From: a virus | Lineage: Duplodnaviria; Heunggongvirae; Uroviricota; Caudoviricetes | Virus record (IMG/VR): IMGVR_UViG_3300036801_000212 | Coordinates: 64,001 to 120,119 of that record | Direction: 5' to 3' (one strand) | DNA: 56,119 nt | Shown here: one piece after another, positions 48,491-56,119 of the stretch | Numbering within the stretch: position 1 is the first letter of the stretch | How the letters are laid out: every line of letters starts with the position of its first letter | The notes under the pieces: generated by a model | What the model saw: the letters and a program-made list of their open reading frames with translations, nothing else | Database searches by the model: none | Told to the model about the DNA's origin: nothing | Position numbers and translations under genes: made by a program

Positions 48491-48567
48491 GGCAAGGCAA
48501 GGCTTGGCAAGGCAGGGCGCGGCGTGGCGGGGCAAGGCGAGGCAGGGGAAGTACTGAGTGGCCAGCA
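48491..48567 (+). repeat. orphan GGC-NN pentamer unit (truncated)
   Basis: 11 perfect GGCNN pentamers then GGGAAGTACTGAGTGGCCAGCA; 48541-48567 is identical to 53210-53236. Confidence 0.9.
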
Positions 48568-48577
48568 CGGCACGAAC

Positions 48578-48855
48578 CAAGATCATGGGGCGGATTTTGG
48601 GGCAAACTGGGTTTCACGGTCCGACACGTTTTCGACACTCTCCGATGTAATCCGACTGCAGACGCTACTTATAGTTACCTCAATGCGACCAACCTGGGAC
48701 TTTACCCCTCCGTCGCGCTGACTCTTAATCAGCGGGTTCGGGGTTCGAGTCCCTGGCGGCGCACTCTAACTACATAGCTCTGACCAGCGGAAACGCCGAT
48801 TCTAAGATCATATCTCACTGGTCCGCCACAAGATCATGGGGCAAAAATGGGGCAG
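48578..48855. other. attP: core = 3' part of tRNA-Lys(CTT) at 48717-48764, flanked by arm-type repeats
   Basis: GCTGA-CTCTTAA-TCAGC anticodon arm plus T arm GTTCGAGTCC, with no acceptor 5' strand or D arm. CAAGATCATGGGGC at 48578 and 48829, with extra TGGGGCA copies. Adjacent to int. Confidence 0.85.
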
Positions 48856-49993
48856 GTGGGTTGCGACTGCCAGCCAGCGCGGCGCGAACCTCATCGTGAC
48901 CGTCGTCCTGAAGATGTGAGTACCTTTGAGTCGTCGTGATCGACTCGTGGCCAAGCAGATATTGCACTCGCGCCAGGGAGACGCCGGCGGTGACCAGACG
49001 GCTGGCGTAGGTATGTCGACAGTCGTGCACCCGGGCGTGGCCCACCTCTGCTCGAGCCAGGGCACGCTTCCAGGTGACGTTGTTGAAGTTGTGCGGATCA
49101 ATCACCGCACCCTTCGGGCCGACCACGACAAGCTCTGATCGGCACACTGACCCTTTCGCGTGAGTGAAGCCACACTTCCTCGCCGAATTACTACTCTGCA
49201 GTAGTACTGTGTGTAGATGCCTGGACATCGGGATGGTCCTACGTTTTTTTCCCTTGGGGTAGGACTCGATGACCCTGTCGTACTGGTTCCATTTCTCGAC
49301 CACGTCGATAGTCCCCCGGTCGAAGTCGAGCCGATGCCGATGCAGTCCCACCGCTTCCCCCAGGCGCAGCCCGGTCTCCAGCAGGATGGTGGTCAGTACC
49401 CAGTACGGCCCGGACATCCGCGCGAGGATGAGTTCGACCTCATCGGCGGTGAAGTATCTTTCCGGCGCCGGAGGAAGGGTCGGCAAGGTGACCGCGTAGC
49501 ACGGAGAGTGATCAATGACGTTGGCCCGGATCGCGTCCTTCATTGACCGACTGAGCTGGTAGTAACACTGCCTCACCGTGGACGCGGAAAGATTCGGGCT
49601 CTTGGCGAGTTTGTTGATCCACACCTGGATGTCGGCATGTTCGATTTCGTTGAGCGGGACATCTTTCCAGCGGGGCTTGACATGCTGGTCCCTGAGGGTA
49701 ACCTGAGAACGCATGGTGCCGGCCTCCAGACTTCGGGTGGGCCACCATCGATCGCACCAATCCCCCCAGCGCATCCGGCCCTTGGACGGGTCGCGTCTGC
49801 TTCCCTCGATGACTTTTTGTTCCTGGGCACTGGCCCAGCGGTAGGCGCCTCGTTTGTGAACGAAAACCTGGGAGCGCTTGCTGCCATCGGCCAAACGGTA
49901 GATGCCCCGAACTTTCACTATCCCGGTCTTATCCGGGGGCAAATCTTCGGTCCAGGCCATGGCTTGATCCTTTCGCGACAGAGCGGCCGGCAT
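48815..49993 (-). CDS. int: tyrosine integrase
   Basis: TGLRLGE, PKGKKRR, HDCRHTYA, LGHESITTTQRY catalytic motifs. Confidence 0.95.
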   Translation of the reverse strand: MPAALSRKDQAMAWTEDLPPDKTGIVKVRGIYRLADGSKRSQVFVHKRGAYRWASAQEQKVIEGSRRDPSKGRMRWGDWCDRWWPTRSLEAGTMRSQVTLRDQHVKPRWKDVPLNEIEHADIQVWINKLAKSPNLSASTVRQCYYQLSRSMKDAIRANVIDHSPCYAVTLPTLPPAPERYFTADEVELILARMSGPYWVLTTILLETGLRLGEAVGLHRHRLDFDRGTIDVVEKWNQYDRVIESYPKGKKRRTIPMSRHLHTVLLQSSNSARKCGFTHAKGSVCRSELVVVGPKGAVIDPHNFNNVTWKRALARAEVGHARVHDCRHTYASRLVTAGVSLARVQYLLGHESITTTQRYSHLQDDGHDEVRAALAGSRNPPAPFLPHDLVADQ

Positions 49994-51905: not shown

Positions 51906-52487
51906 ATGATCATTAATCTGACCGGCAGCACCCCGCTAATGATGCACAGCAGCAGACTGGCGGACTCTGACGATTTCTTTACCAGAGCCATCGCCAAGAT
52001 CGTGGCCAAGCGCACCAACATGACCGACGATGACCGGCTTGAGAAGTCTCGACTGCAGTTCGCCGGCGGTCTGTACCACGACGAAGAAATCGGCCCCTAC
52101 CTCCCCGGACCGAACCTGGTTCGGTCTCTGCGGACTGCCGCACACCTGGTCAAGCACAACAAGGGTGGCGGGGAGATTGAGCGGGGATTCATTCTCCTCT
52201 CGGAGCGCGCACCCCTGGACTACGCGGGGCCTCGCGCCCTCGACGATCTCTGGAATGAAGGCGAATCCAAGTTCGTCGACCGCCGCATGGTGAAGATCGG
52301 TAAGTCGACCGTGTCCACCACTAGGCCGATTTTCGTCAACTGGGGGGCCCAGTTTGAGTTCGAACTGGACCCGAGCGAGATCGACGTCGAGGACTTCCAG
52401 GCCTATGCCGAGAAGTCCGGCAAGGTCGGGGTCGGTGACGCCCGCAAGATTGGGTACGGCCGATTCTCTGTCAAGATCGCCGACTAA
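51906..52487 (+). CDS. stand-alone Cas7/RAMP-like protein (Vipr-like)
   Basis: N-terminal INLTGSTPLMMH strand, YLPGPNL.RSL..AA helix and C-terminal Gly-rich loop GVGDARKIGYGRF; AAGGAAGG RBS; upstream of the GGCNN array. Confidence 0.75.
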   Translation: MIINLTGSTPLMMHSSRLADSDDFFTRAIAKIVAKRTNMTDDDRLEKSRLQFAGGLYHDEEIGPYLPGPNLVRSLRTAAHLVKHNKGGGEIERGFILLSERAPLDYAGPRALDDLWNEGESKFVDRRMVKIGKSTVSTTRPIFVNWGAQFEFELDPSEIDVEDFQAYAEKSGKVGVGDARKIGYGRFSVKIAD

Positions 52488-52510: not shown

Positions 52511-53041
52511 ATGGCGTTGAGTCCTTTTTCTCCCGCTGACGGAAAAGTGTCTCGGCTGCGACACTGTTACGGCCTCGTGGCTTCACGCGAAGCTGGCGAT
52601 GTGATTTCAGTTGAAGAGGTGATGGAGCTTTGCGACTGTGATCGGCCTACCGCGATTCAGGCCATGTGGAGTGTGAAGGCTCCCCTTGAGCGGGATGGTC
52701 TCAACTCGCTTGAGATCATCCGTCCCGGGGGTGGTGGCCGGGCATACGGCTGGCGCATATTGGATCGAGGCGTTCGCAATCTTGATGTTGTGGATGCGCG
52801 GGTTGCTAAGTCGCGCCGTGCTCAGGTTCGGGTGAGCCGTCTGATTAACAACACCGAGCGTGACCGTCTTGATCAGGTCGGTCGGATGCGCTACGACCGG
52901 CTGCAGTCGCACGCGTTGCGGGCCGCGGTGCTCTACGAGCGGAGGCCGTCGAGTTTGGCGGATTTACAGCGCAAGGCGGAGGAGCAGCGCCGCAAGCAGT
53001 TGCCTGGGCGTGATCCGGATGACGGCTCGAGAACGGCCTGA
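52511..53041 (+). CDS. accessory protein between the RAMP gene and the array
   Basis: GGAG RBS; possible winged-HTH N-terminus (SVEEVMELCDCDRPTA...YGWRI); basic helical C-terminus. Confidence 0.7.
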   Translation: MALSPFSPADGKVSRLRHCYGLVASREAGDVISVEEVMELCDCDRPTAIQAMWSVKAPLERDGLNSLEIIRPGGGGRAYGWRILDRGVRNLDVVDARVAKSRRAQVRVSRLINNTERDRLDQVGRMRYDRLQSHALRAAVLYERRPSSLADLQRKAEEQRRKQLPGRDPDDGSRTA

Positions 53042-53051
53042 GGACTTTCAA

Positions 53052-53598
53052 GGCGCGGCGCGGCATGGCGCGGCAAGGCGTGGCTAGGCGAGGCGAGGGA
53101 AAGCAGATGGGCGGATGGCATACACCCAGGTTCGAGTCTTGGGCGCCCACGCACGGCGTGGCATGGCATGGCGGGGCATGGCTGGGCTTGGCGTGGCAGG
53201 GCCGGGCAGGGCAGGGGAAGTACTGAGTGGCCAGCAGGCACCGACGTGCGAGCCGTCGGCACTCACGCACGGCGCGGCTCGGCACGGCGTGGCCGGGCAG
53301 GGCTGGGCAAGGCGTGGCGAGGGATAGCTGGAGAGCGGACGGCATACATCGAGGTTCGGGTCCTCGACGCTCACGCACGGCTAGGCAAGGCCCGGCTCGG
53401 CTGGGCATGGCTGGGCAAGGCTAGTCAGGGCGAGGGAAGTTCGGCGGGTGAACGGCATACACCGCGGTTCGAGTCTGCGGCACCCACGCACGGCGTGGCA
53501 TGGCACGGCGGGGCCCGGCACGGCGAGGCAAAGCGAGGCGAGGGAAGCAGATGGGTGAATGGCATGCACTCGGGTTCGAGCCCCGAGCACCCACGCAA
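53052..53598 (+). ncRNA. array of five GGC-NN repeat RNAs with tRNA-minihelix-like tails
   Basis: Units start at 53052, 53155, 53271, 53379 and 53492 with 9, 12, 10, 11 and 10 pentamers. Each is followed by GGGA(A/T), a two-helix covarying tail and CGCA(C/A). Confidence 0.85.
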
Positions 53599-53610
53599 CA
53601 AACAAGTGAA

Positions 53611-53641
53611 GGGGTCGCGCGCCGGCAAGCACCGCGACCCC
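53611..53641 (+). terminator. hairpin closing the array
   Basis: GGGGTCGCG/CGCGACCCC 9-bp stem; no U-tract. Confidence 0.5.
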
Positions 53642-54333
53642 CTCCAACCACACACTCCCCGAAAGAAGAAGCTGCATGATCCCCCAAAACAATACAGTCA
53701 GCTCCCTTCAAGCGCTACCGGCGGTGACGCACCGCTCCCCAGTGCGTCGCAGAGGCCAGATAGGTGACAGCGGTCCAATCCTGCGAGTCCCCGGTCGTCC
53801 CGGTCCCCCGACCCCCACAGGTCGTGTATCCCACCGGAGAGGTTTGCCGGGAACCGAACATGTAACCGAGTTGATCGCGCGCATCACTGGATGTGCAAAA
53901 TGATCCGGTTATCGCTGTATCAGCGAGCGCAACTCGTCTGCGCCGTGTCAATGATTGGCTGGGCGATGGCCGCTAAGGCTGTCCCAGTCGTGGCCAGCCT
54001 CCTCTTTCGAGGCCATACGTGAGCGACGCGAAACATCGTCTGACACCGGCCGACGAGGATGAACAACTTCTCAAACGATTCGACGGACTCCAGGCTTCCA
54101 TGTCCTGGCCATGGTCTGAACCGTGGTCAGATGACGAAGTAATAGGCCAAGCGTTAGCTGCTGAATTCGCGGCGAAGACATAGTGCTCGGTTTTTCCGCG
54201 CCGGGTAACGATTCAATTCACCGTATCGAATTGTCGGTAGCTTTTGACTACGACAATGTCGAAGTAATCACAACGTGCGGGATTGTGCTCAAAATTCACG
54301 CGGCGGAAAGTAAAAAGGTTTTCGCCTTAAGCG

Positions 54334-55372: not shown

Positions 55373-55879
55373 TTGCCACACCGTGAACCGAACCCCGGAT
55401 TCGATAGGGGCTATTTCGGGATTGCCGTCTATCAGCCGAAGACCGAGGTCAACATCGGAAGTCTCTGGAGATCAGCTTCTGCTTTCGGAGCTGCTTTTAT
55501 CGCCACCGTAGGGAGGCGTTACCCAACTCGGCAAGCATCAGACACGACTTACGCCTCGAAGTACATCCCGTTATTTAACTTCCCGACCATGGATGATCTA
55601 CTAGGACATCTCCCCAATTCCTGTCCTCTAGTGGGTGTCGAGCTCGACACCCGAGCGAAGAGTTTGAACACATATCATCATCGGGAACGAGCGCTGTATT
55701 TGCTTGGCGCGGAAGATAGAGGTATACCTCCGAAGGTTTTGGACATGTGTCACGATTTGGTGCAGATTCCCACCGTGACACCGTGGTCCATCAACTTAGC
55801 CTGCGCTGGGTCGATTCTTCTTGCGAGCCGCCACATGTCCCACCTTCTCCTAAAGACCGCAATGAACGAGGAGGCATAG
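55373..55879 (+). CDS. SpoU/TrmH-family RNA methyltransferase
   Basis: NIGSLWRSA.AFG, LVGVE, LLGAEDRGI and SINLA SPOUT motifs; AAGGAG RBS. Confidence 0.9.
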   Translation: MPHREPNPGFDRGYFGIAVYQPKTEVNIGSLWRSASAFGAAFIATVGRRYPTRQASDTTYASKYIPLFNFPTMDDLLGHLPNSCPLVGVELDTRAKSLNTYHHRERALYLLGAEDRGIPPKVLDMCHDLVQIPTVTPWSINLACAGSILLASRHMSHLLLKTAMNEEA

Positions 55880-55883
55880 CCCC

Positions 55884-56119
55884 ATGGCTGAATGTACTGT
55901 CCGAACGCAGGCTGAGCTGGACCGTGCAGTCGCAGACCGGATCGAACGGATTGAGATTCGCTCCGACTCTGGGGTGTGGATCGACGTCACCTCAAGCGAC
56001 TCGTCCACGGTGACGGCCTACGACTCGTCCACGGTGAGGGCCTACGGCTCGTCCACGGTGACGGCCTGCGGCTCGTCCACGGTGACGGCCTACGACTCGT
56101 CCACGGTGACGGCCTACGG
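55884..56119 (+). CDS. octapeptide-repeat (beta-solenoid) protein, truncated by the window end
   Basis: GGAGG RBS; five 24-bp repeats from 55998 encoding (D/G)SSTV(T/R)A(Y/C). Confidence 0.8.
   Translation, partial: MAECTVRTQAELDRAVADRIERIEIRSDSGVWIDVTSSDSSTVTAYDSSTVRAYGSSTVTACGSSTVTAYDSSTVTAY

What the first reader, a model, noticed from the sequence alone, without database searches (positions are those of the whole stretch)
53097..53598. Array units are punctuated by covarying tRNA-minihelix mimics
Seen: every tail has a 6-nt outer strand, an 11-nt linker (GGCA core), a 6-bp stem, a 7-nt T-loop and then CGCA. Outer stems: TGGGCG/CGCCCA, TGAGTG/CACTCA, GAGCG/CGCTC, GGGTG/CACCC, TGGGTG/CACCCA. 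Inner stems: CCCAGG/CTTGGG, CCGACG/CGTCGG, TCGAGG/CCTCGA, CCGCGG/CTGCGG, CTCGGG/CCCGAG. Loops: TTCGAGT, TGCGAGC, TTCGGGT, TTCGAGT, TTCGAGC. The 6+6 stack equals the 12-bp acceptor/T helix of tRNA. Established: RNase P and RNase Z recognise such minihelices. Inference: host tRNA-processing enzymes replace Cas6 to cut the array into single guides.
Basis: partly seen in the sequence, partly recalled or inferred. Interest (0 to 1): 0.88.

Follow-up and report, generated by a model that had tools for sequence, protein, structure and literature searches.

The report
tRNA-like tails punctuating a VIPR guide array
The five hairpins are real, strongly covarying mimics of the tRNA acceptor/T-arm "elbow" that end each guide RNA of a phage VIPR system (a CRISPR-like system described in 2026). 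The same element also follows ordinary genes in Streptomyces phages that have no VIPR, so it most likely marks where host tRNA-processing enzymes cut, though no RNA ends have been mapped.

Summary
Observation confirmed. Window 53052-53597 (+) holds five units, each with 9-12 GGC-NN pentamers, a GGGAW pentamer, a 5-7 nt spacer, a 40-nt minihelix and then A-CGCA.

The locus is a VIPR system, known from 2026 bioRxiv preprints. ORF 51906-52487 matches the solved SUSP1 Vipr protein (PDB 36pp, E = 9e-17). ORF 52511-53041 is a vap-like gene. The pentamer tracts are vrRNA guides.

What those preprints and Rfam 15 do not describe is the tail. It has a 5-bp acceptor-like stem, an 11-nt linker and a 6-bp T stem closed by G-C, with a T-loop of consensus TTCGAGN. 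Across 63 homologues 99.6% of cells pair. Two pairs that were never used for selection covary: one inside the linker and one between the linker and the T-loop.

The same element occurs 6-10 times per genome, just after stop codons, in Streptomyces phages and complete metagenomic phages that lack vipr. It is therefore a free-standing actinophage RNA module that was co-opted into VIPR arrays.

Cleavage by host RNase Z, possibly also RNase P, is the best-supported mechanism but is untested. A cut on the 3' side fits the anatomy better than a 5' RNase P cut.

The scan had already noted tRNA-like hairpins in VIPR arrays on other DNA. Verdict: a new variant of a known kind.

The parts
51906..52487 (+). 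vipr gene (193-aa RAMP-fold Vipr protein, P0001)
   Evidence: phmmer against PDB gives 36pp_D 'SUSP1 Vipr protein', E = 9e-17, over residues 3-191. It matches phrog_4652 at E = 4e-37. The ESM Atlas model has pTM 0.87 and a RAMP superfamily structural neighbour. Homologues are present in 85 of 121 loci fetched only for their GGCNN runs, almost always on the same strand as the runs.
52511..53041 (+). vap-like accessory gene (176 aa, P0002), probable DNA-binding protein
   Evidence: It sits between vipr and the array, as vap does in published loci. Its family occurs in 26 of the fetched loci. It is 29% identical (E = 7e-7) to Gordonia phage MakoManhole gp77, annotated 'DNA binding protein', in the same position. 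There is no Pfam, PHROG or NCBIfam hit and no detectable similarity to SUSP1 vap1.
53052..53101 (+). vrRNA 1 repeat tract: 9 GGC-NN pentamers plus GGGAA
   Evidence: Read directly from the sequence, with the register fixed. It starts 10 nt after the vap stop codon, with no minihelix upstream.
53109..53148 (+). tail 1: tRNA-like minihelix (GGGCG / 11-nt linker / CCCAGG / TTCGAGT / CTTGGG / CGCCC)
   Evidence: Model R1 scores it 70.2 bits, E = 5.5e-14.
53150..53219 (+). vrRNA 2 repeat tract: CGCAC, 12 GGC-NN pentamers, GGGAA
   Evidence: The pentamer phase starts one base after the preceding stem.
53225..53264 (+). tail 2: variant minihelix (AGCA at the GGCA position, loop TGCGAGC)
   Evidence: R1 scores it 58.5 bits, E = 2.9e-11. 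An identical tail occurs in array B and in the orphan unit.
53266..53325 (+). vrRNA 3 repeat tract: CGCAC, 10 GGC-NN pentamers, GGGAT
53333..53372 (+). tail 3: minihelix (GAGCG / TCGAGG / TTCGGGT)
   Evidence: R1 scores it 67.5 bits.
53374..53438 (+). vrRNA 4 repeat tract: CGCAC, 11 pentamers (one is GTCAG), GGGAA
53446..53485 (+). tail 4: minihelix (GGGTG / CCGCGG / TTCGAGT)
   Evidence: R1 scores it 70.5 bits.
53487..53546 (+). vrRNA 5 repeat tract: CGCAC, 10 pentamers (one is AGCGA), GGGAA
53553..53592 (+). tail 5: minihelix (GGGTG / CTCGGG / TTCGAGC), followed by A-CGCA
   Evidence: R1 scores it 67 bits. It is about 90% identical to single intergenic copies in 29 Streptomyces phage records.
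53612..53645 (+). G+C-rich inverted repeat after the array; a possible terminator without a T-run
   Evidence: Read from the sequence. The consensus terminator scan did not report it, so this is inference only.
48491..48567 (+). orphan, truncated sixth unit: 11 pentamers plus the first half of a tail-2-type minihelix, with the T arm missing
   Evidence: Self-blast and own-genome search and the sequence itself. It lies beside attP.

Best explanation
What it is. The region is the vrRNA (guide RNA) array of a phage VIPR system. A Vipr protein (51906-52487) and a vap-like protein (52511-53041) are followed by five contiguous guide units. In each unit the NN dinucleotides of 9-12 GGC-NN repeats are the programmable part, as published for VIPR. 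The 3' tail is a 40-nt mimic of the tRNA acceptor/T-arm elbow.

Tail anatomy. The tail has a 5-bp acceptor-like stem starting with G-C. An 11-nt linker acts as a miniature D-arm: it contains one internal covarying pair, and its GG aligns with tRNA G18 and G19. A 6-bp T stem is closed by an invariant G-C, and the loop is a TTCGAGN T-loop. Two further pairs join the linker to the loop: N19 with N34, which covaries, and C20 with G33, which is invariant. The fold is therefore a compact pseudoknotted elbow.

Proposed mechanism (inferred).
1. The array is transcribed as one precursor, because the units abut with no room for promoters.
2. The host's tRNA 3'-end machinery (RNase Z, or an equivalent endonuclease that reads the elbow and acceptor stem) cuts just after the purine that follows the stem. 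That cut simultaneously makes the 3' end of one guide-plus-tail RNA of about 107-116 nt and the 5' end (CGCNN-GGC...) of the next guide.
3. RNase P may also cut at the 5' side and release the minihelix. This is less likely to be the main route, because it would strip the guide of its tail.

Origin. The element was not invented for VIPR. It is a free-standing, multi-copy actinophage RNA module that also follows ordinary genes in vipr-less phages, and VIPR arrays of one actinophage clade have co-opted it. It plays the role that hammerhead ribozymes play in other VIPR arrays and Cas6 plays in CRISPR.

What is shown and what is inferred. Shown: system identity, tail structure, covariation, distribution and junction geometry. 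Inferred: transcription as a precursor, which enzyme cuts, and where. The confidence given is for the whole statement including the inferred cleavage mechanism; the identity of the locus as a VIPR array with tRNA-like tails alone I would put at about 0.95.
For: System identity:
- P0001 matches the SUSP1 Vipr structure 36pp at E = 9e-17.
- Published VIPR anatomy is a Vipr protein, a vap gene, and vrRNAs of 9-16 YNNGG repeats with a conserved structured 3' tail. The units here have 9-16 repeats.
- Vipr homologues occur in 85 of 121 loci fetched only for GGCNN runs, on the same strand as the runs.

Tail structure:
- On 63 homologues, 99.6% of cells pair. Ten of the eleven stem pairs show changes on both sides.
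- The unselected pairs covary: columns 12-18 are 98% paired with 31 double changes, and columns 19-34 are 100% paired with 29 double changes.
- T-loop positions T54, C56, R57, N59, and the G53-C61 pair are invariant, as are the second G of the linker GG and the linker C of the C20-G33 contact.
- The one variant tail changes the G18-like and U55-like positions together.

Independence from VIPR:
- There are 10 copies each in Streptomyces phages phiCAM and SunsetPointe, and 6 and 8 copies in two complete metagenomic phages. None of these has a vipr homologue.
- In phiCAM and SunsetPointe each of the 8 copies examined starts 7-41 nt after an annotated stop codon, most of them 7-14 nt, on the gene strand.
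- The same arrangement is seen in a Glycomyces tenuis genome.

Tail is not tied to the Vipr protein:
- Close Vipr relatives use arrays without this tail, either staggered or short-tailed.
- SUSP1 uses an unrelated H-type pseudoknot.
- In Gordonia phage Trine a minihelix with no guide before it separates the vipr stop codon from the first guide. There are 13 such 'tail first' cases overall.

Cut site:
- After the stem comes a purine in 117 of 125 cases, and then C in 110 of 125.
- The next GGY run starts exactly 6 nt after the stem in 26 of 56 cases, and in the same phase in 10 more. The upstream spacing varies from 4 to 24 nt.
- In candidate host genomes 76 of 157 tRNA genes lack an encoded CCA, and the CCA-less tRNA-Lys trailers also begin with C.

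Reliance on host enzymes:
- The carrier phages examined encode no CCA-adding enzyme and no RNase Z-type metallo-beta-lactamase.
- This phage encodes no RNase P RNA.

Precedent:
- Hammerhead-interspersed VIPR arrays have been confirmed by small-RNA sequencing.
Against: - No RNA ends are known for any of these arrays, and no RNA run holds this phage.
- The acceptor-like stem is 5 bp and the stack is 11 bp, against 7 bp and 12 bp in tRNA. There is no encoded CCA. Whether actinobacterial RNase Z or RNase P accepts such a substrate is untested.
- The first guide (53052) has no upstream minihelix, so another activity must make its 5' end. Candidates are an internal promoter or trimming back to the bound protein.
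- In SUSP1 the tail is a structural cap of the Vipr filament and assembly appears to start near it. The tail here could serve mainly that purpose.
- The fixed 3' junction could simply reflect compact unit duplication.
- Folding energies are no better than those of shuffled sequence.
Confidence: 0.5

Rival explanations
1. The minihelix is mainly the Vipr-binding 3' handle or filament cap, the functional equivalent of the SUSP1 pseudoknot tail. It would nucleate Vipr assembly and protect the 3' end. The array would then be cut by something unrelated to tRNA processing, such as RNase E, J or III, Vipr itself acting like Cas6, or exonucleolytic trimming back to the bound protein. This is not mutually exclusive with the main reading.
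For: - In the SUSP1 cryo-EM structures the 3' pseudoknot caps the RNA, and the protomers nearest to it are always resolved.
- Every intact guide here carries a tail.
- The tail is itself pseudoknotted through linker-to-loop pairs.
- tRNA-like tails are concentrated in one Vipr clade: 16 of 19 fall in a clade of 22 rows.
- The first guide lacks an upstream minihelix but presumably still matures.
Against: - The same element, with the same invariant positions, occurs 6-10 times per genome in phages that have no vipr.
- Vipr proteins inside the same clade work with staggered or short-tailed arrays.
- The spacing between the repeat tract and its own tail varies (4-24 nt; 5-7 nt after GGGAW in this array), which is unexpected for a fixed protein-RNA geometry.
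- Trine has a tail with no guide in front of it.
Confidence: 0.25
2. The minihelix is a generic RNA stability or termination hairpin, acting as a 3' exonuclease block or a factor-independent terminator. Its resemblance to tRNA would be incidental or inherited from a tRNA fragment.
For: - It sits directly after stop codons or after guides, on the transcribed strand.
- Its stems are G+C-rich, and it is the minimum-energy fold.
- Actinobacterial terminators often lack a U-tract (own knowledge).
Against: - A plain hairpin would not need an invariant T-loop, an invariant linker G, a covarying linker-internal pair or a covarying linker-to-loop pair.
- Five terminators in series with no intervening promoters would silence guides 2-5.
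- There are 6-10 copies inside what look like single operons of early genes.
Confidence: 0.1
3. The element is a tRNA-mimic decoy or sponge. It would titrate a host or rival factor that reads tRNA elbows, such as a defence nuclease or a modification enzyme. In vipr-less phages it could instead be a tail-only decoy for rivals' Vipr.
For: - It is multi-copy and elbow-specific in its conservation.
- Solo vrRNAs that hijack a rival's Vipr have been published.
- A SpoU-family RNA methyltransferase gene lies 1.8 kb downstream.
Against: - There is no anticodon arm, so it cannot decoy anticodon nucleases.
- Strict placement after stop codons and between guides looks like punctuation, not a dedicated sponge gene.
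- SpoU is absent from the comparison set as far as examined, and the enzyme's subfamily is unassignable.
Confidence: 0.06
4. It is a DNA-level feature, such as remnants of attP or tRNA 3' ends, recombination sites, or protein-binding repeats, with no RNA role.
For: - The phage integrates at a tRNA-Lys 3' end, and a truncated unit lies beside attP.
- T-arm plus acceptor 3' strand is what att cores look like.
Against: - Both strands of both stems are present, and they covary so as to keep pairing, with G-U pairs allowed only in the RNA sense.
- The orientation always follows the flanking genes.
- Each copy has different stem sequences, unlike att repeats.
Confidence: 0.03

Closest known systems
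Type II VIPR systems of Escherichia phage SUSP1 and a Pseudomonas fulva prophage (bioRxiv 10.64898/2026.04.26.720920, .720927 and 10.64898/2026.10.15.759431)
   Same: - A small Vipr RAMP protein; this one matches the solved SUSP1 protein at E = 9e-17.
- An adjacent small accessory gene.
- Guides made of 9-16 GGY-NN pentamers followed by a conserved, structured, pseudoknotted 3' tail.
- Phage-borne, with extra 'solo' arrays elsewhere in the genome.
   Different: - The tail is an acceptor/T-arm elbow mimic, not the SUSP1 H-type pseudoknot.
- The units abut with no spacer, so they must come from one precursor.
- The accessory protein shows no detectable similarity to SUSP1 vap1.
- The host is an actinomycete.
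- None of the four VIPR preprints mentions tRNA, RNase P or RNase Z.
Hammerhead-ribozyme-interspersed vrRNA arrays (VIPR types I and V, fig. S19 and S20 of 10.64898/2026.04.26.720920)
   Same: A structured RNA module sits between consecutive guides and is presumed to cut the precursor into single guides without a Cas6-like protein.
   Different: Those arrays are self-cleaving. The element here has no ribozyme signature (no Rfam hit) and would need a trans-acting host enzyme.
tRNA-like processing signals: engineered polycistronic tRNA-gRNA arrays, MALAT1/mascRNA, mitochondrial tRNA punctuation (own knowledge, not checked here)
   Same: A tRNA-shaped element between functional RNAs or genes directs RNase P and/or RNase Z to liberate them. 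The gene-punctuating copies in Streptomyces phages resemble mitochondrial punctuation, and the array resembles engineered tRNA-gRNA arrays.
   Different: - It is not a full cloverleaf: there is no anticodon arm and no D stem, the acceptor stem is 5 bp, and extra linker-to-loop pairs are present.
- Cleavage is not demonstrated.
tRNA-like domain of tmRNA and bacterial/phage Y-RNA-like YrlA (Rfam models included in the scan)
   Same: An acceptor stem plus T arm, with a D-loop analogue contacting the T-loop and no anticodon arm.
   Different: - There is no match to either Rfam model at E up to 10.
- The element is only 40 nt, with no CCA end, no tag reading frame and no Ro-binding stem.

Membership tests
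VIPR system | Vipr RAMP protein encoded beside the repeats | tested here: met
   P0001 matches PDB 36pp 'SUSP1 Vipr protein' at E = 9e-17 over 189 residues. tblastn finds SUSP1 and SUSP2 at 30% identity over 98% of the query. The Atlas structure has a RAMP neighbour.
VIPR system | vrRNA tracts of about 9-16 tandem GGY-NN pentamers with variable NN | tested here: met
   Ten tracts of 8-16 units in the two arrays. GGC is fixed, and the NN strings differ even between units that share an identical tail.
VIPR system | Conserved structured 3' tail after each tract | tested here: met
   A 40-nt minihelix follows every tract, supported by covariation. The fold differs from the published SUSP1 pseudoknot.
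VIPR system | vap accessory gene | tested here: inconclusive
   P0002 occupies the vap position and its family recurs in 26 loci. It has weak similarity to a 'DNA binding protein' in MakoManhole, none to SUSP1 vap1, and no family hit.
VIPR system | Guides match natural DNA targets by the 1-nt skip rule | tested here: inconclusive
   Nothing exceeded shuffled controls in 1.5 Mb of local sequence. Three exact 10-unit scans of IMG/VR gave 0, 0 and 2 homologous hits. The hits are in codon phase, but the other six units match only 3 of 12 bases, which is about chance level.
tRNA gene | Cloverleaf with anticodon arm and 7-bp acceptor stem | tested here: not met
   ARAGORN finds no tRNA in the window. 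Rfam RF00005 does not match even at E = 10. An 11-nt linker replaces nucleotides 8-48, and the acceptor-like stem is 5 bp.
tRNA-like substrate of RNase P / RNase Z | Coaxial acceptor plus T helix of about 12 bp with contiguous 3' strands | tested here: inconclusive
   The 3' strands are contiguous. The helix is 11 bp in this subtype (12 in three of the five units here, through an unconserved U-A pair) and 12 bp in the GATGGTCG subtype of related phages.
tRNA-like substrate of RNase P / RNase Z | Canonical T-loop with G53-C61 closure and a GG partner forming the elbow | tested here: met
   T54, C56, R57 and G53-C61 are invariant. U55 and A58 are at least 90% conserved. Of the linker GG, the second G is invariant and the first is at least 90% conserved. 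A linker-to-loop pair covaries.
tRNA-like substrate of RNase P / RNase Z | Actual cleavage at the helix ends | not testable with these tools
   No RNA runs are listed for this phage. Indirect evidence only: a purine then C after the stem, and a fixed 6-nt offset to the next guide.
CRISPR array | Direct repeats of 20-40 nt separating unique contiguous spacers, with Cas6 or another processing nuclease | tested here: not met
   The units are pentamer tracts plus tails whose stems differ in sequence. No Rfam CRISPR repeat family matches. The only RAMP gene is vipr.
Hammerhead-interspersed VIPR array | Hammerhead ribozyme core between guides | tested here: not met
   No Rfam ribozyme match at the gathering threshold or at E up to 10.

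The most novel reading that the evidence does not exclude
The 40-nt elbow minihelix may be an undescribed, widespread actinophage RNA family that recruits the host's tRNA-maturation enzymes to cut phage transcripts. In Streptomyces phages it would punctuate early operons gene by gene, a bacterial-virus counterpart of mitochondrial tRNA punctuation. In one clade of VIPR systems it would have been co-opted as a Cas6-free, ribozyme-free way to mature guide RNAs, making it a natural version of engineered tRNA-gRNA arrays.
Probability: 0.4. Interest if true: 0.8.

Novelty: new variant of a known kind. Interest (0 to 1): 0.6.

Why it matters
VIPR was described only in 2026, and how its guide arrays are matured is largely open. 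The preprints report separate transcripts, staggered arrays and hammerhead ribozymes.

A third, host-dependent solution based on a tRNA mimic would show that guide maturation in these CRISPR relatives is modular and repeatedly reinvented. It would also supply a compact 40-nt natural processing tag for multiplexed guides in actinobacteria.

Independently of VIPR, a structured RNA present in about 10 copies per genome after the early genes of well-studied Streptomyces phage groups (Camvirus, Likavirus) is absent from Rfam 15. I found it in none of the papers searched. It would bear on how these phages process or stabilise their mRNAs.

Cultured carriers make all of this directly testable: Mycobacterium phage LittleE, Gordonia phages Trine and MakoManhole, and Streptomyces phage phiCAM.

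Tried and rejected
- **Rfam.** No family matched the window at the gathering threshold. An E-value scan of 52900-53800 gave only two chance-level hits, AniS and MIAT. There was no match to tRNA, tmRNA, YrlA or any ribozyme.
- **ARAGORN.** No tRNA in the window. The genome has two real tRNAs elsewhere.
- **Early ideas dropped once the Vipr match appeared.** These were coding pentapeptide repeats, a TRAP-like protein sponge, G-quadruplex or R-loop DNA, and a Rho-loading site on the antisense strand.
- **Expression data.** Runs holding the stretch are soil metagenome DNA only, and no RNA holder was listed.
- **Promoter and terminator scans.** Nothing was found. The scan covers only sigma-70-type promoters and T-run terminators, which may not fit an actinobacterial host.
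- **Thermodynamic significance of the tails.** Not significant, with z-scores from -0.35 to -1.05. The repeat tract plus tail gave z = +0.68.
- **Target search by the 1-nt skip rule.**
  - Own genome plus all fetched loci (1.5 Mb): best scores equalled the shuffled controls. The skip-3 'hits' are the arrays themselves.
  - Exact 10-unit scans of IMG/VR for guides A2 and B2: none.
  - Guide B4: two homologous contigs (L285:6126, L286:11084), in codon phase within a 363-aa ORF of unknown function. The remaining units do not match, and I estimate the combined chance probability at about 0.1-0.15, so this is not used as evidence.
- **Host identification from attP.** The 42-nt tRNA-Lys(CUU) core is identical in more than 120 genomes from many actinomycete families, so the host is not resolved.
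- **Phage-encoded tRNA enzymes in five carrier genomes.** There is no PolyA_pol/CCA-adding enzyme and no Lactamase_B_2/RNase Z. The SpoU-family ORF could not be assigned to a subfamily.
- **Literature.** Searches on tRNA-like elements in actinophages or Streptomyces phages, and on tRNA-like guide processing, found nothing relevant.
Full report
**1. What is in the sequence**

Window 53052-53597 (+) consists of five head-to-tail units. Each unit has these parts in order:
- a tract of 9-12 perfect or near-perfect GGC-NN pentamers;
- a conserved GGGAA or GGGAT pentamer;
- 5-7 variable bases;
- a 40-nt hairpin-within-a-hairpin;
- an A followed by CGCA.

ViennaRNA returns exactly that minihelix as the minimum-energy fold of each tail. 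The energies are no better than those of shuffled G+C-rich sequence, with z-scores from -0.35 to -1.05. ARAGORN finds no tRNA in the window, and Rfam 15 finds nothing at gathering scores or at E up to 10.

**2. Genome context**

The window is the second half of a 120,119-bp IMG/VR phage contig. Its two ends share 24-nt tandem repeats.

- A second array of five units lies on the opposite strand about 60 kb away (contig 56705-57310, which is L005:1496-2100). Four of its five tails are identical or nearly identical to tails of the first array, but its NN strings are different.
- A truncated eleventh unit lies at window 48491-48567. It sits beside attP, which is a 42-nt tRNA-Lys(CUU) 3' end at 48722-48763 that is identical in many actinomycete genomes. 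A tyrosine integrase is encoded at 48815-49993.
- A covariance model built from homologues (R1) finds exactly ten matches in the genome. All are in the two arrays, with E = 1e-14 to 3e-11.

**3. What the system is**

In 85 of 121 of these loci, the fetched DNA encodes a homologue of window ORF 51906-52487. The homologue is almost always on the strand of the pentamers and lies directly upstream or downstream of them.

That ORF (P0001) matches the solved 'SUSP1 Vipr protein' (PDB 36pp) at E = 9e-17. This identifies the locus as a VIPR system, described in 2026 preprints. In that description:
- Vipr is a small ancestral RAMP protein that polymerises on a vrRNA made of 9-16 GGY-NN repeats.
- The NN dinucleotides read double-stranded DNA with one skipped base per unit.
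- A conserved structured 3' tail caps the RNA.

ORF 52511-53041 occupies the vap position. It recurs in 26 loci and weakly resembles a 'DNA binding protein' at the same position in Gordonia phage MakoManhole.

This scan has also met VIPR many times before.

**4. What is new: the tail**

A pattern scan that imposed no base pairing recovered 46 distinct sites in IMG/VR and phage records, and 41 of them had a perfect 6-bp inner stem. An ungapped alignment of 63 distinct copies (A1) shows the following:
- A 5-bp outer stem, 100% paired, with all five pairs showing changes on both sides.
- A 6-bp inner stem, 99.7% paired, with five pairs showing double changes and an invariant closing G-C.
- A sixth outer pair that is not conserved (9 of 63).
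- Two pairs that played no part in selecting the sequences. Linker position 2 pairs with linker position 8 (98% paired, 31 double changes). Linker position 9 pairs with the last base of the 7-nt loop (100% paired, 29 double changes across A-U, G-C, C-G and U-A).
- An adjacent C-G contact between linker and loop, and the second G of the linker GG with its loop partner C, all invariant. The first G is at least 90% conserved.
- The only variant tail (unit 2 here) changes the first G and its loop partner U together.

Read in tRNA numbering, the loop is T54-U55-C56-R57-A58-N59-N60 closed by G53-C61. The linker GG sits where G18 and G19 contact U55 and C56. The element is therefore a miniature tRNA elbow: an acceptor stem, a T arm and a D-loop surrogate, locked by an extra linker-to-loop helix.

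The whole structure scores 0.65-0.74 for covariation against 0.17-0.19 in shuffles (0 of 500 shuffles as high). Pairing collapses to 25-50% when the partners are slid.

**5. Distribution**

The element exists without VIPR:
- R1 finds 10 copies each in Streptomyces phages phiCAM (Camvirus) and SunsetPointe (Likavirus), all on the gene strand.
- It finds 6 and 8 copies in two complete metagenomic phages.
- None of these genomes has a vipr homologue.
- In phiCAM and SunsetPointe each of the 8 copies examined begins 7-41 nt after an annotated stop codon, most of them 7-14 nt, and lies 28-53 nt before the next start codon.
- A Glycomyces tenuis genome shows the same arrangement in what looks like a prophage.

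Only about 6% of the unbiased VIPR loci carry a tRNA-like tail. These fall mostly in one Vipr clade: 16 of 19 lie in a clade of 22 rows, with support 91/85, next to the SUSP1 group. That clade includes cultured phages:
- Mycobacterium phage LittleE;
- the M. abscessus prophage prophiBWHA-1;
- Gordonia phages Trine and MakoManhole.

Some of these use a second subtype, with linker GATGGTCGNA, a 7-bp T stem and loop TTCGACT, giving a 5+7 = 12 bp stack. The same clade also contains staggered and short-tailed arrays. SUSP1 itself uses an unrelated H-type pseudoknot. Tail type is thus exchangeable between close Vipr relatives.

**6. Mechanism**

The units abut with no room for a promoter: the stem is followed by one purine and then by the first pentamer of the next guide. 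A precursor must therefore be cut, unless Vipr assembles on the uncut RNA. Several observations point to the 3' edge of the minihelix as the cut site.
- The base after the stem is a purine in 117 of 125 copies and the next base is C in 110 of 125, in both VIPR and non-VIPR contexts. This resembles a discriminator base plus C74 with no encoded CCA.
- About half of the tRNA genes in candidate host genomes lack CCA, and the CCA-less tRNA-Lys genes there also continue with C.
- The next GGY run starts exactly 6 nt after the stem in 26 of 56 cases and in the same phase in 10 more, as A-CGCNN-GGY. The distance from a guide to its own tail varies from 4 to 24 nt.
- In Trine, a minihelix with no guide before it separates the vipr stop codon from the first guide.
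- A 3' cut alone would give guide-plus-tail RNAs of 107-116 nt. This is close to the roughly 100-nt vrRNAs, with retained tails, reported for SUSP1.

The carrier phages encode no CCA-adding enzyme and no RNase Z-type protein, and this phage encodes no RNase P RNA. Any tRNA-type processing would therefore be done by the host.

RNase P cleavage at the 5' edge is possible and would release the minihelix. However, it would strip the tail from the guide. I therefore rank RNase Z-type 3' cleavage first and cleavage on both sides second.

None of this has been observed. No RNA data are available for this phage. The first guide of this array has no upstream minihelix, so at least one end must be made in another way.

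**7. Rivals**

- **Vipr handle or cap.** The tail may chiefly be the Vipr handle or cap, as in SUSP1. Its presence in vipr-less phages, its absence from close Vipr relatives and its loose spacing to the repeat tract argue against this as its primary or original role. The two functions can coexist.
- **Plain stabiliser or terminator.** This would not need the invariant T-loop, the conserved GG or the tertiary pair.
- **DNA-level readings.** These are contradicted by strand-specific, G-U-tolerant covariation.
- **Decoy reading.** This cannot be excluded, but it does not explain the punctuation-like placement.

**8. Guide targets**

I could not establish natural targets.
- The 1-nt-skip patterns of all ten guides score no better than shuffled guides against 1.5 Mb of local sequence.
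- Of three exact 10-unit scans of IMG/VR, one gave two homologous hits in codon phase, but the rest of that guide does not match.
- I treat this as inconclusive.

**9. Comparison and novelty**

The system is a member of VIPR. Vipr, the repeat tracts and a structured tail are all present; vap is probable; targeting is untested.

The four VIPR preprints in the library list separate transcripts, staggered arrays, hammerhead-interspersed arrays and single guides. None mentions tRNA, RNase P or RNase Z. Rfam 15 has no family for the element, and literature searches on tRNA-like elements in actinophages found nothing.

Earlier follow-ups of this scan had already noted a tRNA-like hairpin between VIPR guides, and tRNA-like cassettes or tRNA genes beside VIPR arrays, on other DNA. 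The idea is therefore not new within the scan.

- the family-level structure, including the tertiary pairs;
- the two tail subtypes;
- the clade distribution;
- the junction geometry, which favours a 3' cut;
- the finding that the same module punctuates genes in vipr-less Streptomyces phages.

Verdict: a real feature that is a new variant of a known kind. The mechanism is plausible and readily testable, but unproven.

Noticed in passing
L005:1496-2100 (contig G000:C1:56705-57310, minus strand; outside the window): A second, 'solo' array of five vrRNA units lies about 60 kb from vipr on the opposite strand. Four of its tails are identical or nearly identical to tails of the window's array, but in a different order and with different NN strings.
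   Followed up: partly
window 48722-48763 and 48815-49993: attP core: a 42-nt 3' end of tRNA-Lys(CUU), identical in more than 120 actinomycete genomes (Kribbella, Saccharothrix, Glycomyces, Pseudonocardiaceae and others). It lies next to a tyrosine integrase. On integration, the VIPR locus would sit about 4 kb from one prophage end.
   Followed up: partly
window 55373-55879 (+): A SpoU-family RNA 2'-O-methyltransferase ORF (Pfam E = 4e-20) lies 1.8 kb downstream of the array. The subfamily (RlmB, TrmJ or TrmL) is not assignable. A link to the tRNA-like tails is possible but untested.
   Followed up: partly
window 55997-56118 and contig start (G000:C1:1-179): 24-nt tandem repeats occur at both contig ends. 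The contig is probably a circularly closed or terminally redundant genome, although IMG/VR classes it as linear.
   Followed up: no
L002 (Streptomyces phage phiCAM, record 44.5-49.6 kb), L003 (SunsetPointe), L008, L009, L016, L018: Ten copies per genome of the same elbow minihelix follow the stop codons of consecutive small early genes in vipr-less Streptomyces phages. None is annotated, and the element is not in Rfam.
   Followed up: partly
L001:2425-2770 (Mycobacterium phage Donkeykong gp48); L157:3079-3336 (Gordonia phage Trine gp40, 5' part): Annotated 'hypothetical protein' CDSs are drawn across vrRNA pentamer arrays, which stay open in all frames. These are probable mis-annotations in GenBank records.
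   Followed up: no
L285:6126-6154 and L286:11084-11112: There is an exact 20/20 match, in codon phase (peptide LIDCCICTND), to the ten tail-proximal units of guide B4 in a 363-aa ORF of unknown function. It appears on two related IMG/VR contigs, one labelled as a giant-virus MAG. It may be chance.
   Followed up: partly
L289:872-1466 (G000:C1:40672-41266, minus strand): Rfam match to Sernc389, a Saccharopolyspora sRNA (165 bits, E = 3e-42). This hints at a Pseudonocardiaceae-type host or a shared mobile sequence.
   Followed up: no
G000:C1:38703-38900: The phage carries two conventional tRNA genes, Met(CAT) and Pro(TGG), so real tRNAs and tRNA mimics coexist in one genome.
   Followed up: no
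L126, L142, L043, L044, L089 (IMG/VR VIPR loci): Other array architectures are visible in the fetched loci: very long uninterrupted pentamer runs, runs separated by 4-nt phase shifts (staggered arrays), and short unstructured separators.
   Followed up: no
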